Positions 37,401-40,400 of a stretch of 64,000 nucleotides of DNA are shown here, piece by piece. The position numbers are program-made. Each line of letters begins with the position of its first letter. The stretch's first letter is position 1. The stretch lies in NCBI RefSeq assembly GCF_057098645.1, contig NZ_CM169472.1; one strand, given 5' to 3'.

Positions 37401-40400
37401 CTTCCCAGCAAAAATTTGCGATGTGCCAGCAGGTGCGTCAGAACTAATCCCAGCAGCGCGCCCACAATTAACAACGCATTAAGCATCAGGCTGGCAGTCA
37501 GCGCATCTTCCAGTCCAATAGTCTGGGCGATAGTTGGCAGCCAGGTATAAATCACAAACCATGGGATTACGAGGCAGACAAAGAAGACGCTGTTAAACGC
37601 CGTGCGCCGCCAGTAGCGCGAAGAGAACAAGGTTTTGATGTGTTTATGGGTCGCCGTTGCCACTTCATCGCCCAGTAAAACATGGGGACCAAAATAGCGA
37701 TGCACGATAGAGTGAGCTTCTGCAAAACGCCCCTGGCGCAGTAGCCAGCGTGGCGATTCTGGCGTTCCCCAGCGTAATAACGTAATCAACAATGCGGGCA
37801 GAGCTGCCGATGCCAGCAGCCAGCGCCAGGCCTCCGGGCTTTCGCTAATAAAGTGATGTCCGGCAATACTTGCCAACACATAGCCTACGGTCCACACCAC
37901 GCTGAATGCGCCCAGCAAAATACCGCGATGGCGGCGCGGGGAAAATTCAGCCAGCAAGGTGTGACCTACTGAGTAATCGCCTCCCAGACCAATGCCGATC
38001 AAAATGCGCAGCCCAATAAGATGCTCTGGCGTGGTGGCAAAAAATTGCAAGAACGAAGCGAGCGTAATCAGCAAAAAGCTGAAGGTGAAGATTTTTTGCC
38101 GACCAATATGGTCGGAGATCCACCCAAGAACCAGGCTGCCAAGAAACAAACCAAGGAGCGCCGAGCCGCCTATCATTCCCGCCATAAACGGCGTCAGTTG
38201 CATGGCGGGCGTAAGTTGAATAATGGCGTAACCAATGACGCCGAGAACATAACCGTCGGTCAGGTGTGCGCCGAAAGTGAGCGCAGCAATTCGACAGTGA
38301 AAACGGTTAAGCGGTAAATCATCCATTCGCACCGGTGAAGTGTTCATCTTTACCCCTTCATTGTCCGGTAATAAGAACGGCTTCTCGCCTGAGAAGCCGA
38401 AAAGGCAACGCCCCATCATCGCGGAACGCTGCCTGACACATTATTTTTCAATCGGATAGATAGTACCCGTATTCATAATGCCGTTAGGATCGAACTGCTT
38501 TTTCAGCCCTTCCAGCAACGCCCACGCGCTGCCGTGTTCCAGTTTGCTCCAGTGAACGCGATGTTTACCGATACCGTGGTGGTGCACCATCGAACCACCG
38601 AGGCGAATGGTTTCTTCGCAAATGATTTTGTTGAGCGGATTGTGGTACTTGTCGATTTCCTCTTCCGGCTTACAGTCAACAACGTTGTAATCGTAGACGA
38701 AGTACATGTTGGTGCCGTTCTGATAGCTATGAGAGGAATGACCGCCCAGCATGGTGATGTCGTCGGCGTGCGGGAACTCAGTACGAATACGGTTAATAAC
38801 GCTTTCGTAGATTTCGTGGATGCAGCTCCAGCAGCCGGACACTTCAGTGGTAAAGCCCATGTTGCCGGTTTTGAGGATTTGCACACGTTCGGCAGCCACT
38901 TTATCCGGTCCCCAGTTCAGGTTGTTAAACCAGGTTTCGATCAGTTTGCTGTCCACGCGCTGGCACTGCGGGTAGCGGGCAACGATTTCCGCAATCCCTT
39001 CGCCCGTCGCCTTCGCAATGCGAGGGTTACCTTCAGCCATAAAGATCAGCACACATTTTCCGTCGGCAAAATGGGTGAAGTGTTGGGTGCCATCTTCAGC
39101 GTCATACAAACGAGCGATCGACGGACGATACCCTTCCACCATGATTTCACGCAGGATGTTGAAGCCGGTTTTCATGTCTTCCAGGATATAGCCGTAGAAG
39201 AGGTTGTTTTCCGGGGTGAATTTAAAGATTTTCACTGTTACTTCAGTGATATAGCACAATGCACCTTCGTTGCCGATGATGATGTGACGAATGTCCGGGC
39301 CAGCCGCGCGGCGTGGCACGTTTTTAATACGTGTGACGGTGCCATCAGCCAATACGGCTTCCAGACCAACGACCATATCTTCGATTGCGCCGTAGAGTGT
39401 GGAGAACTGCCCGATACTGCGGGTTGCTACCAGGCCGCCCATCTGCGCCAGCGGCTTTGACTGCGGAGAATGCCCCGTGGTGTAACCTTTTTCACGCAAC
39501 GCGTTTTCCAGCACTTCCAGCGGAACACCACATTGCGCCGTCGCCTGCATATTCTCAATATCAATATTAATGATTTGATTCATGGCGGAGCCGTCGAGCA
39601 CCACCGAGTTTTCTACAACAGTTTCCAGCCCACCTTCGGTGGCGGAAGCACCGGTACGCGGCACACCGTTAATTTTGTGCGCATTCATAAAATTCAGCAC
39701 ACGGGAGACTTGTTCTGTGGAACCGAGTTTTACGACCGCAGCCGGAATCGGCAAAGTATAAATACCATGAATATCCGGAAATTTACGAAAACGGTCAATA
39801 CTGTTCTTCTTTAATACTGTTTTATCGGTAATTACGCGATCTGCACCAAAAATTTCCTTTAGCTGGTCGACAATCGCTGCGCGAGATAAAGACATAGTAA
39901 TTCCTTCCTGATAATAAAAATGGAATAATCATTAATAAGAGAAAACAGAAACCACCGTTATGGGTTAGCGCACTAAATAACCGCCATCAACCACTAATAA
40001 ATGCCCGTTGACATAATTCGATGCCGGACTTGCGAGGAATACAGCTGCGCCCATTAAATCCTGAGTATCGCCCCAACGGTTTGCCGGAATATGATCAAGA
40101 ACGCGCTGATTGGTTTCTGGATTACTGCGTGTCGCCAGCGTAATATCTGTTGCATAATAGCCAGGGGCGATACCATTTACATGAATATTATATTGCCCTA
40201 ATTCATCACAATAAGCTTTGGTGAATCCGGCAAGAGCATGTTTAGTGGCAGAATATGCGGGTGACCATTGTCCACCTAAGTAAGAGAACAATGAACAGAT
40301 ATTAATAATTTTACCGCTTTTCTGCGGGATCATAATTTTTGCCGCTTCGTAGCTTAACTCGAATGCGGCGGTCAGGTTCACATCAATCATCGGGTCCCAG

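What the first reader, a model, noticed from the sequence alone, without database searches (positions are those of the whole stretch)
38370..38399. Second hairpin plus U-rich tract between ygcU and ygcS
On the minus strand CGGCTTCTC-AGGC-GAGAAGCCG is followed by TTCTTATT, just before the ygcS ribosome-binding site. It is weaker than the ygcW leader element, but a second such structure in the same island supports regulated read-through between ygcU and ygcS.
Basis: inference. Interest (0 to 1): 0.3.

Follow-up and report, generated by a model that had tools for sequence, protein, structure and literature searches.

The report
Conserved weak terminator hairpin before ygcS
The hairpin is real and conserved across enteric bacteria and looks like an ordinary leaky transcription stop between two genes of one operon, but it is not the same kind of element as the strong ygcW leader and nothing shows that it is regulated.

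Summary
On the minus strand, CGGCTTCTC-AGGC-GAGAAGCCG (38399..38378) is followed by TTCTTATT (38377..38370), 10 nt before the ygcS Shine-Dalgarno. Hairpins of this quality occur at 3 places in the window against 0.025 expected. A homologous hairpin follows ygcU in every enterobacterial locus where ygcS comes next: 91.9% of cells are paired, 8 of 9 pairs change on both sides, and it ends 18-32 nt before the ygcS ATG. Several genera have a canonical T7-T8 tract after it. In Escherichia the tract is interrupted, and the terminator score is +2, against +56 and +32 for the ygcW and yqcE leaders. RefSeq's long ygcS start, which would put both hairpins inside coding sequence, is not conserved.

The best reading is a leaky intra-operon intrinsic terminator, probably the old ygcWU operon end. 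It is not "a second such structure": a covariance model of the ygcW/yqcE leader family scores nothing here or at this junction in 67 loci, and no antiterminator partner exists. Only a six-base stem-tip motif is shared. No mapped 3' ends exist, so regulated read-through remains unproven. Ordinary; low interest.

The parts
38378..38399 (-). H2, the reported hairpin: CGGCUUCUC-AGGC-GAGAAGCCG. 9 bp, 6 G-C, 4-nt loop, dG -14.9 kcal/mol.
   Evidence: Sequence. Fold. Terminator scan. Covariation across 33 distinct junctions: 91.9% of cells paired against <=58% in slid controls, 8 of 9 pairs with changes on both sides, 0 of 500 shuffles. Chance rate 0.025 per window.
38370..38377 (-). Interrupted U-rich tail UUCUUAUU (6 U of 8) directly after H2.
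   Evidence: T-score 2.94 and overall d = +2.0, which is borderline. Homologous position is T7-T8 in L014, L015 and L016, but is displaced or poor in L010, L011 and L013. The first U is C in some Escherichia (L002, L056).
38403..38434 (-). H1, a second hairpin found only in Escherichia: AGGCAGCGUUCCG-CGAUGA-UGGGGCGUUGCCU.
   Evidence: Fold. Present in all 7 Escherichia junctions with one-sided changes that keep pairing, and absent from every other genus. Single copy per genome in 5092 of 5426 E. coli genomes, so not a dispersed repeat. d = +1.3 here and +6 to +15 in other Escherichia.
38400..38402 (-). UUU spacer between H1 and H2. With the paired U at 38403 it forms the run CCUUUUCGG, which is H1's short U-tract.
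   Evidence: Invariant in all Escherichia sequences.
38441..38443 (-). ygcU stop codon TAA.
38353..38359 (-). ygcS Shine-Dalgarno GAAGGGG, 5 nt before the conserved ATG.
   Evidence: AAGGGG is conserved in the junction alignment.
38345..38347 (-). Conserved ygcS start codon (445-aa form, as annotated in K-12).
   Evidence: The K-12 annotation gives a 445-aa ygcS and a 93-nt gap. tblastn of the 445-aa form aligns from residue 1 in all Enterobacteriaceae orthologues.
38417..38419 (-). In-frame upstream ATG inside H1, used by PGAP as the ygcS start (469 aa). Judged an over-extension.
   Evidence: PGAP annotation. The ATG exists only in Escherichia; in other genera that frame has stops or no start codon. 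Substitutions in the 'extension' follow the hairpin (loop swap AGGC/AACC with G-A to G-G in the stem) rather than the codons.

Best explanation
H2 is a conserved intercistronic hairpin of the intrinsic-terminator type, sitting at the ygcU/ygcS boundary of the ygcW-ygcU-ygcS-ygcR-ygcQ operon.

Proposed mechanism. When RNA polymerase has transcribed the hairpin and the U-rich tract, a fraction of complexes release the RNA. This produces a ygcWU transcript whose 3' end is protected by the hairpin. The rest read through into ygcSRQ. The element therefore sets a fixed step-down between the two dehydrogenase genes and the transporter/ETF genes, rather than acting as a switch.

In Escherichia the U-tract has decayed to UUCUUAUU, so H2 alone should be weak. 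A lineage-specific second hairpin (H1 plus UUUU) sits in tandem just upstream and may add to termination. The hairpin is most simply the retained terminator of an older ygcW-ygcU operon, behind which ygcSRQ now lies.

Shown: the structure exists, it is non-random, it covaries, its position relative to the ygcS ATG is fixed, the flank is T-rich, a hairpin also follows ygcU where the operon ends there, and it does not belong to the leader family.

Inferred: that it terminates at all, that termination is partial, and that read-through is passive.
For: - Exact hairpin plus tail; listed by the terminator scan.
- 3 observed sites of this quality against 0.025 expected per window.
- The junction folds with z = -4.59.
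- A hairpin lies right after ygcU in every locus where ygcS follows. Among Enterobacteriaceae it is homologous: stem 8-13 bp, loop usually 4 nt, dG -11.6 to -21, ending 18-32 nt before the ATG.
- Covariation: 91.9% paired against <=58% in slid controls, 8 of 9 pairs with changes on both sides, 0 of 500 shuffles.
- Canonical U-tracts in several genera: L014 T8, L015 T7, L016 T6, and L035/L036 with d = +24 to +44.
- 19 of 35 junctions have at least 5 T in an 8-nt window.
- The ygcW-ygcU spacer has no comparable hairpin, so the structure is specific to this boundary.
- Species lacking ygcS downstream still have a GC-rich hairpin right after ygcU, several of them with T-tracts (L033, L034).
- The 52-64 nt gaps leave no room for a promoter, and the promoter scan finds none in the 3' part of ygcU.
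- Score d = +2.0 lies just above the zero threshold and far below the Term-seq-validated leaders at +56 and +32, which fits a leaky site.
Against: - No RNA 3' end has been mapped here. 'ygcU' and 'ygcS' do not occur in any of the four supplementary tables of Adams et al. 2021 (PMC7815308), nor in the SMRT-Cappable-seq or TERMITe supplements. The operon is essentially shut off at its leader in those conditions, so this is absence of evidence rather than evidence against.
- U-tract quality varies widely (d from -44 to +44). In L010, L011, L013, L043 and L044 the tract is displaced or missing while the hairpin is kept. This suggests the hairpin itself, rather than termination, may be what selection preserves.
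- The stem sequence GGCTTCYC/GRGAAGCC is conserved more than structure alone requires.
- My score uses modern ViennaRNA energies in a 1990 formula, so the zero threshold is only approximate.
Confidence: 0.55

Rival explanations
1. RNA stability or processing element only. The hairpin does not stop polymerase. It blocks 3'-to-5' exonucleases after cleavage, stabilising the ygcWU segment, or it forms a protective 5' stem-loop for a processed ygcSRQ mRNA. Either would give differential decay of the operon's two halves.
For: - The hairpin is kept even where the U-tract is poor or displaced (L010, L011, L013, L043, L044).
- Every insertion falls between the ygcU stop and H2: H1 in Escherichia, and 50-200-nt palindromic inserts in L006, L008, L010 and L055. 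The hairpin-SD-ATG module stays intact at 18-32 nt, as expected if it belongs functionally to the ygcS 5' side.
Against: - T-richness after the stem is widespread, and several genera have canonical T6-T8 tracts. A pure exonuclease barrier does not need this.
- No processing sites are known here.
Confidence: 0.2
2. Conditional terminator. Read-through at H2 is switched by a factor, most plausibly the island's GlpP-family protein YgcP bound to its phosphorylated ligand. This would give a second checkpoint after the ygcW leader.
For: - YgcP is a full-length PF04309 G3P_antiterm protein (E = 1.4e-62).
- The ygcW and yqcE leaders are real intrinsic terminators in vivo. In MG1655, 3' ends map at 2900311(-) and 2900556(+), with intrinsic-terminator scores 15.8 and 11.4, and are not Rho-dependent (PMC7815308 supplementary file 3).
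- The leader family travels with ygcP homologues even in Firmicutes.
- H2 and the tip of the ygcW leader hairpin share CTTCYC-N3-8-GRGAAG. This occurs exactly twice in the window (0.02 expected), and 49 of 53 distinct occurrences in 1.3 Mb of loci lie at these two sites.
Against: - The leader covariance model scores nothing at the junction in the window (filters off, E <= 10) or in any of 67 loci.
- H2 lacks the RTTACYAGAG box, the GAGAAARGTAAY lower stem and the covarying antiterminator pairing that define the leaders.
- No conserved upstream competitor exists for its 5' arm.
- The shared tip motif is not needed for leader membership: the E. coli yqcE leader has TCCACC/GGCGG instead.
- H2 loses the motif in L007, L014, L028-31 and L066 while the ygcW leader keeps it.
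- GlpP is known to act at 5' leader terminators, not inside operons (PMC9604022).
Confidence: 0.12
3. Translation-initiation element for ygcS. The U-rich tract acts as an S1-binding enhancer or standby site. The hairpin insulates the ygcS ribosome-binding site from upstream structure, or from ribosomes terminating at ygcU.
For: - Fixed distance of the hairpin end to the ATG (median 27 nt).
- The block ACCGGACAATGAAGGGG between the tract and the ATG is conserved in many genera.
- A weak pairing of UUACC with GGUAA next to the SD appears in the predicted fold.
Against: - The UUACC/GGUAA pairing is not kept in L008, L014 or the Pluralibacter-like group.
- A GC-rich hairpin also follows ygcU in species where no ygcS follows.
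- Nothing here distinguishes an enhancer from a terminator tail.
Confidence: 0.06
4. The hairpins are simply part of the ygcS coding sequence (the 469-aa form annotated by PGAP) and have no RNA-level role.
For: RefSeq annotates ygcS from ATG 38419 in this strain and in most E. coli genomes.
Against: - K-12 curators use the 445-aa form.
- The upstream ATG exists only in Escherichia and lies inside H1. Other genera have stop codons or no start in that frame, and gaps of only 52-64 nt.
- All orthologues align from residue 1 of the short form.
- There is no Shine-Dalgarno before 38419, against GAAGGGG with 5-nt spacing before 38347.
- The variation follows the hairpin, not the codons.
Confidence: 0.02

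Closest known systems
Partial intrinsic terminators inside operons, for example the rplL-rpoB attenuator of the E. coli rplKAJL-rpoBC operon (named from general knowledge, not tested here)
   Same: A GC-rich hairpin plus U-rich tract on the sense strand, between two cistrons that have no promoter in between. Downstream genes depend on read-through. The expected effect is a fixed step-down in expression.
   Different: No termination has been measured here. The U-tract is interrupted (UUCUUAUU) and my score is borderline (+2.0). In Escherichia there are two tandem weak hairpins.
The ygcW and yqcE leader terminators of the same island (window 40855-40772 minus strand, 40966-41046 plus strand)
   Same: Same island, and for ygcW the same operon and strand. 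Hairpin followed by T's about 25-30 nt before a start codon. Shares the stem-tip motif CTTCYC...GRGAAG with the ygcW leader.
   Different: The leaders have a 17-19-bp stem, T8-9, a conserved box RTTACYAGAG, an invariant lower stem and a covarying antiterminator pairing. They also have mapped 3' ends in vivo. H2 has none of these, and the family covariance model does not score it.
GlpP-controlled conditional terminators in the 5' leaders of B. subtilis glpD, glpFK and glpTQ
   Same: A PF04309 antiterminator homologue (YgcP) is encoded about 3 kb away. Terminator hairpins precede genes of a carbohydrate or polyol-type catabolic island.
   Different: GlpP targets are leader terminators directly downstream of promoters (PMC9604022). 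H2 is intercistronic, has no identifiable protein-binding box, and shows no evidence of dependence on YgcP. I could not retrieve the B. subtilis target sequence for comparison.
Intercistronic stabiliser hairpins, for example the REP elements between malE and malF (named from general knowledge)
   Same: A stable stem-loop between cistrons that could protect the upstream mRNA segment from 3' exonucleases.
   Different: H2 and H1 are single-copy and not a dispersed repeat family. H2 carries a T-rich tail. A real REP-like element lies elsewhere in the island (35288-35348).

Membership tests
Rho-independent (intrinsic) terminator | GC-rich stem-loop on the transcribed strand, downstream of a gene | tested here: met
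   9 perfect pairs, 6 G-C, 4-nt loop, dG -14.9 kcal/mol, 41 nt after the ygcU stop on the sense strand. The helix covaries.
Rho-independent (intrinsic) terminator | Uninterrupted U-tract immediately 3' of the stem | tested here: inconclusive
   UUCUUAUU has 6 U of 8 but is interrupted at positions 3 and 6. T-score 2.94 and d = +2.0, against +56 and +32 for the validated leaders. The homologous site is T6-T8 in L014-L016 and poor in L010, L011 and L013.
Rho-independent (intrinsic) terminator | RNA 3' ends at the U-tract in vivo, or release in vitro | not testable with these tools
   No ygcU or ygcS entry in the Term-seq tables of PMC7815308, nor in PMC6131387 or PMC12207403. The operon is terminated at its leader in those conditions, so the absence is uninformative.
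ygcW/yqcE leader RNA family (model R1, built here) | Scores against the family covariance model | tested here: not met
   With filters off over the whole window, only 40855-40772 (82.1 bits) and 40966-41046 (79.8 bits) plus opposite-strand echoes are found. Nothing at 38370-38440 at E <= 10. No junction hit in 67 loci at E <= 1.
ygcW/yqcE leader RNA family (model R1, built here) | Upstream box RTTACYAGAG that pairs with the terminator's 5' arm (antiterminator) | tested here: not met
   The box occurs only at 40838-40828 (-) and 40983-40993 (+) in the window. Its pairing covaries in the leaders. For H2 the best upstream complement is 5-6 nt inside the ygcU CDS, at chance level.
ygcW/yqcE leader RNA family (model R1, built here) | Invariant lower stem GAGAAARGTAAY / RTTACYTTTCTC followed by T8-9 | tested here: not met
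   The regular expression hits exactly two sites per Enterobacterales locus and never the junction. The H2 stem is CGGCTTCTC/GAGAAGCCG and its tail is TTCTTATT.
ygcW/yqcE leader RNA family (model R1, built here) | Stem-tip motif CTTCYC-loop-GRGAAG (typical of ygcW leaders, not universal in the family) | tested here: met
   Two sites in the window, H2 and the ygcW leader, against 0.02 expected. 49 of 53 distinct sites in 1.3 Mb of loci lie at these two positions.
GlpP-type conditional leader terminator | Lies in a 5' leader between the promoter and the first gene | tested here: not met
   H2 lies between the second and third genes of the operon. The gap is 52-93 nt and shows no promoter-like site.
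GlpP-type conditional leader terminator | A PF04309 antiterminator protein is encoded in the locus | tested here: met
   YgcP (34674-35249, + strand) matches PF04309 over its full length, E = 1.4e-62.
GlpP-type conditional leader terminator | Read-through depends on the protein and its ligand; the protein binds the RNA | not testable with these tools
   This needs genetics or biochemistry. I could not retrieve the B. subtilis GlpP binding-site sequence for comparison.
Dispersed palindromic repeats (REP/BIME and similar) | Many copies per genome | tested here: not met
   The H2 pattern occurs once in the window. H1 occurs at one place per genome in 5092 E. coli genomes.
Any curated Rfam family | Match to an Rfam covariance model | tested here: not met
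   cmscan of 34000-45000 at E <= 10 gives no match at the junction.

The most novel reading that the evidence does not exclude
H2 is a second-tier conditional terminator. Its stem tip CUUCYC/GRGAAG, shared only with the ygcW leader hairpin, is recognised by the same island-encoded GlpP-family protein YgcP (or another common factor). Induction would then first open the leader, switching on the enzymes YgcW and YgcU, and then open the internal stop, switching on the transporter YgcS and the electron-transfer flavoprotein YgcRQ. This would be an antiterminator acting inside an operon, at a site that lacks the canonical leader box.
Probability: 0.1. Interest if true: 0.6.

Novelty: new member of a known kind. 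Interest (0 to 1): 0.25.

Why it matters
By itself it matters little. It is one more unannotated, probably leaky terminator inside a poorly expressed operon of unknown function. It has three practical uses:

1. It argues that the RefSeq/PGAP start of ygcS used in most E. coli genomes is 24 codons too long.
2. It suggests that ygcWU and ygcSRQ are expressed at different levels. Anyone trying to work out the substrate of this island should allow for that.
3. It serves as a negative control that sharpens the definition of the more interesting ygcW/yqcE leader family. That family has mapped 3' ends in vivo, travels with YgcP-type antiterminators across phyla, and appears to be undescribed.

Tried and rejected
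- **Rfam**: nothing at the junction.
- **Published 3'-end and full-length transcript maps.** PMC7815308 supplements have ygcW and yqcE leader ends but no ygcU or ygcS entries. The PMC6131387 and PMC12207403 supplements have nothing. PMC6061677 and PMC9023263 have no supplements held.
- **Other literature on the island.** I found only CRP and sigma SELEX listings, a 1.69-fold D-serine induction of ygcU in EHEC, and YgcS overexpression for NMN production. None bear on the junction.
- **Nascent-RNA folding.** I asked whether the 5' arm is captured before the 3' arm is made. The test did not discriminate: mean pairing 0.58 for H2 against 0.63 for the leaders.
- **Search for an upstream copy of the 3' arm.** Only 5-6-nt complements turned up, inside the conserved ygcU codons (GGAAGGGCTG, Leu-Glu-Gly-Leu). 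I judged this to be chance.
- **H1 as a dispersed repeat:** rejected, because it is single-copy.
- **The long ygcS ORF:** rejected.
- **Retrieving a genuine B. subtilis glpP locus or GlpP binding-site sequence for comparison:** failed. The 120 listed homologues are all YgcP-like, and the paper's Fig. S1 is an image.
- **RNAalifold on the MAFFT alignment** gave only a weak consensus (-1.08 kcal/mol), because five divergent sequences are misaligned. I relied instead on explicit pair counting.
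Full report
**1. The observation**

The minus strand reads TAA(ygcU stop, 38443-38441)-TGTGTC-AGGCAGCGTTCCG-CGATGA-TGGGGCGTTGCCT-TTT-CGGCTTCTC-AGGC-GAGAAGCCG-TTCTTATT-ACCGGACAAT-GAAGGGG-TAAAG-ATG.

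H2 has 9 perfect pairs (6 G-C), a 4-nt loop and dG -14.9 kcal/mol. The consensus terminator scan lists it. That scan is loose, with 25 hits against 11.4 expected in 10 kb, so I ran a stricter count. Hairpins with at least 9 perfect pairs, at least 5 G-C, loop 3-8 and at least 5 T in the next 8 nt occur at 3 distinct places on both strands of the window. Shuffled windows gave 0.025 +/- 0.16. The 106-nt junction folds with z = -4.59. The window is E. coli of the O145:H28 type. The K-12 junction differs by one base, which lies in H1.

**2.

The fold shows two tandem hairpins. H1 (38434-38403, 13 pairs including G-U) is followed by UUU and then H2.

RefSeq/PGAP starts ygcS at ATG 38419, inside H1. 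That would make both hairpins coding sequence. I reject this start for five reasons:
- K-12 curators use ATG 38347, giving 445 aa.
- All enterobacterial orthologues align from residue 1 of the short form.
- The upstream ATG exists only in Escherichia; elsewhere that frame has stops or no start codon.
- Most genera have gaps of only 52-64 nt.
- GAAGGGG lies 5 nt before 38347, whereas nothing resembling a Shine-Dalgarno precedes 38419.

**3. Conservation**

A scan of representative genomes with YgcU returned 67 loci. I mapped the island genes in each with tblastn. The layout ygcE-yqcE <> ygcW-ygcU-ygcS-ygcR-ygcQ < ygcP-ygcO-ygcN holds across Enterobacterales. Firmicutes carry ygcP with ygcW, ygcU and ygcE.

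Wherever ygcS follows ygcU, a hairpin sits right after ygcU. In Enterobacteriaceae it is clearly homologous to H2, with consensus CGGCTTCYC-N4-GRGAAGCCG. Examples of compensated changes are GGCTCCTC/GAGGAGCC, TGGCTTCC/GGAAGCCA, GTCGGCTC/GAGCCGAC and TGCGGTCTC/GAGGCCGCA.

On 33 distinct junctions (alignment A1):
- 91.9% of cells are paired, against at most 58% when partners are slid.
- 8 of 9 pairs show changes on both sides.
- No shuffle out of 500 reaches the observed values.

Two caveats apply. The structure was taken from one of the sequences, and the sequences are related.

The hairpin ends 18-32 nt before the ygcS ATG (median 27). It starts 5-16 nt after the ygcU stop in the 26 genera without insertions. 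All insertions fall upstream of H2: H1 in Escherichia, and 50-200-nt palindromic inserts in L006, L008, L010 and L055.

The ygcW-ygcU spacer has no comparable structure. Species without ygcS downstream still have a GC-rich hairpin right after ygcU, and some have good T-tracts.

**4. Is it a terminator?**

The T-rich flank is common but uneven. It is T8 in L014, T7 in L015 and T6 in L016. It is interrupted in Escherichia, and displaced or poor in L010, L011, L013, L043 and L044.

I used a d'Aubenton-Carafa-type score with ViennaRNA energies, so the threshold of zero is approximate.

| Element | Score d |
|---|---|
| H2, this window | +2.0 |
| H1, this window | +1.3 |
| H1, other Escherichia | +6 to +15 |
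| ygcW leader (Term-seq validated) | +56.0 |
| yqcE leader (Term-seq validated) | +31.7 |
| Two other strong hairpins in the window | +5 and +15 |

H2 is therefore at best a weak terminator in E. coli. The short gaps leave no room for a promoter, and the scan finds none nearby. ygcSRQ must therefore be transcribed through the hairpin.

No experimental 3' end is available here. This says little, because the leader terminates the operon under the conditions tested.

**5. Is it 'a second such structure'?**

No. The ygcW-yqcE divergent region holds two mirror-image leaders belonging to one family:
- an upstream box RTTACYAGAG
- a lower stem GAGAAARGTAAY...RTTACYTTTCTC
- T8-9, ending about 25 nt before the start codon

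In MG1655, RNA 3' ends map on the 3' side of both hairpin cores. They lie at 2900311(-), 38 nt before ygcW (40,640 reads, intrinsic-terminator score 15.8, not Rho-dependent), and at 2900556(+), 36 nt before yqcE (score 11.4) (PMC7815308 supplementary file 3).

The box can pair with the 5' arm of the terminator, forming an antiterminator. This pairing covaries: 83.3% of cells paired against at most 54.5% slid, with G-C/A-U and U-A/C-G swaps in 12 and 10 sequences.

A covariance model of the family (R1), run with filters off, finds only the two leaders in the window and nothing at the junction. It finds nothing at any junction in 67 loci. It does find copies next to ygcP homologues in Firmicutes.

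H2 has no box and no conserved competitor for its 5' arm. A thermodynamic test of arm capture was uninformative.

**6. The remaining link**

H2 and the tip of the ygcW leader hairpin share CTTCYC-N3-8-GRGAAG. The motif occurs exactly twice in the window against 0.02 expected. Across 1.3 Mb of loci, 49 of 53 distinct occurrences lie at these two sites.

This could reflect common descent, a shared factor or convergence. Two points weigh against a shared factor. The E. coli yqcE leader lacks the motif, and H2 loses it in several genera where the ygcW leader keeps it. I leave about 10-12% for regulated read-through.

**7. Verdict**

H2 is a real, conserved intercistronic hairpin of the terminator type. 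Most likely it is a leaky attenuator and 3'-end protector inherited from a ygcWU operon end. In Escherichia it is weakened and is accompanied by a lineage-specific tandem hairpin.

It is a new, unannotated example of a familiar kind of element. The inference of regulation does not follow from it.

Noticed in passing
window 40772-40855 (-) and 40966-41046 (+): Two mirror-image leader RNAs, before ygcW and before yqcE, form one tightly conserved family: box RTTACYAGAG, stem GAGAAARGTAAY...RTTACYTTTCTC, and T8-9. There are exactly two copies per Enterobacterales locus. Both have mapped 3' ends in K-12 that Adams et al. 2021 never discuss in their text. A terminator/antiterminator alternative covaries, and there is no Rfam family. 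This is a candidate target of the GlpP-family protein YgcP, and it looks undescribed.
   Followed up: partly
L053 7531-7608, L060 8060-8143, L065 9807-9896 and 9528-9606, L067 6576-6653 and 8414-8492, L068 8216-8297: The leader covariance model also hits Firmicute loci (30-59 bits), next to ygcP homologues and upstream of ygcW, ygcU or ygcE homologues. The pairing of this RNA with a YgcP-type protein therefore seems to span phyla.
   Followed up: partly
window 38345-38419 (-): RefSeq/PGAP annotates ygcS as 469 aa from ATG 38419 in this strain and in most E. coli genomes, whereas K-12 has 445 aa. Some genomes show no feature over the same bases. The long start is not conserved outside Escherichia and lies inside a hairpin.
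   Followed up: yes
L006 ~11456-11590, L008 ~3689-3745, L010 ~11456-11655, L055 ~11456-11575; also the yqcE-ygcW spacer of L006 and L012: Palindromic inserts bounded by TATACGC...GCGTATA (50-200 nt) lie between the ygcU stop and the conserved hairpin in Klebsiella, Raoultella, Enterobacter and C. koseri. A similar element of about 130 nt (TATACCC...GGGTATA) enlarges the yqcE-ygcW spacer in L006 and L012. They look like small mobile inverted-repeat elements.
   Followed up: no
L035 3078-3175: In Limnobaculum eriocheiris the yqcE-ygcW spacer is only 130 nt. It holds a single palindromic leader hairpin flanked by A9 and T9 that serves both strands. The promoter and CRP region appears to have been deleted, perhaps by recombination between the two inverted leaders.
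   Followed up: no
window 40875-40890: A perfect CRP-type palindrome, TGTGATCGTAATCACA, sits midway between the two leaders (0.02 expected by chance). This fits published reports of CRP sites and CRP activation for ygcW/yqcE-ygcE.
   Followed up: partly
window 35288-35348: A sub-threshold Rfam match to naRNA4, a REP-derived RNA (29.8 bits, E = 0.04), lies between the convergent ends of ygcP and ygcQ. It is probably a REP element.
   Followed up: no
window 35120-35143 (-): A terminator-like hairpin, CCGCCAGC...GGTTGGCGG followed by ATTTTTT, lies about 250 nt downstream of the ygcQ stop. It is on the ygcQ strand but inside the 3' end of ygcP. It could be the final stop of the ygcW-ygcQ operon, though its score is poor (d = -15.5).
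   Followed up: no
window ~44427-44699 (L001 12928-13200): RefSeq annotates a CRISPR repeat array just downstream of ygcE, before queE.
   Followed up: no
window 38381-38396 and 40793-40812: The palindromic motif CTTCYC-N3-8-GRGAAG is shared only by the junction hairpin and the tip of the ygcW leader hairpin. The cause is unknown: common origin, a common factor, or convergence.
   Followed up: partly
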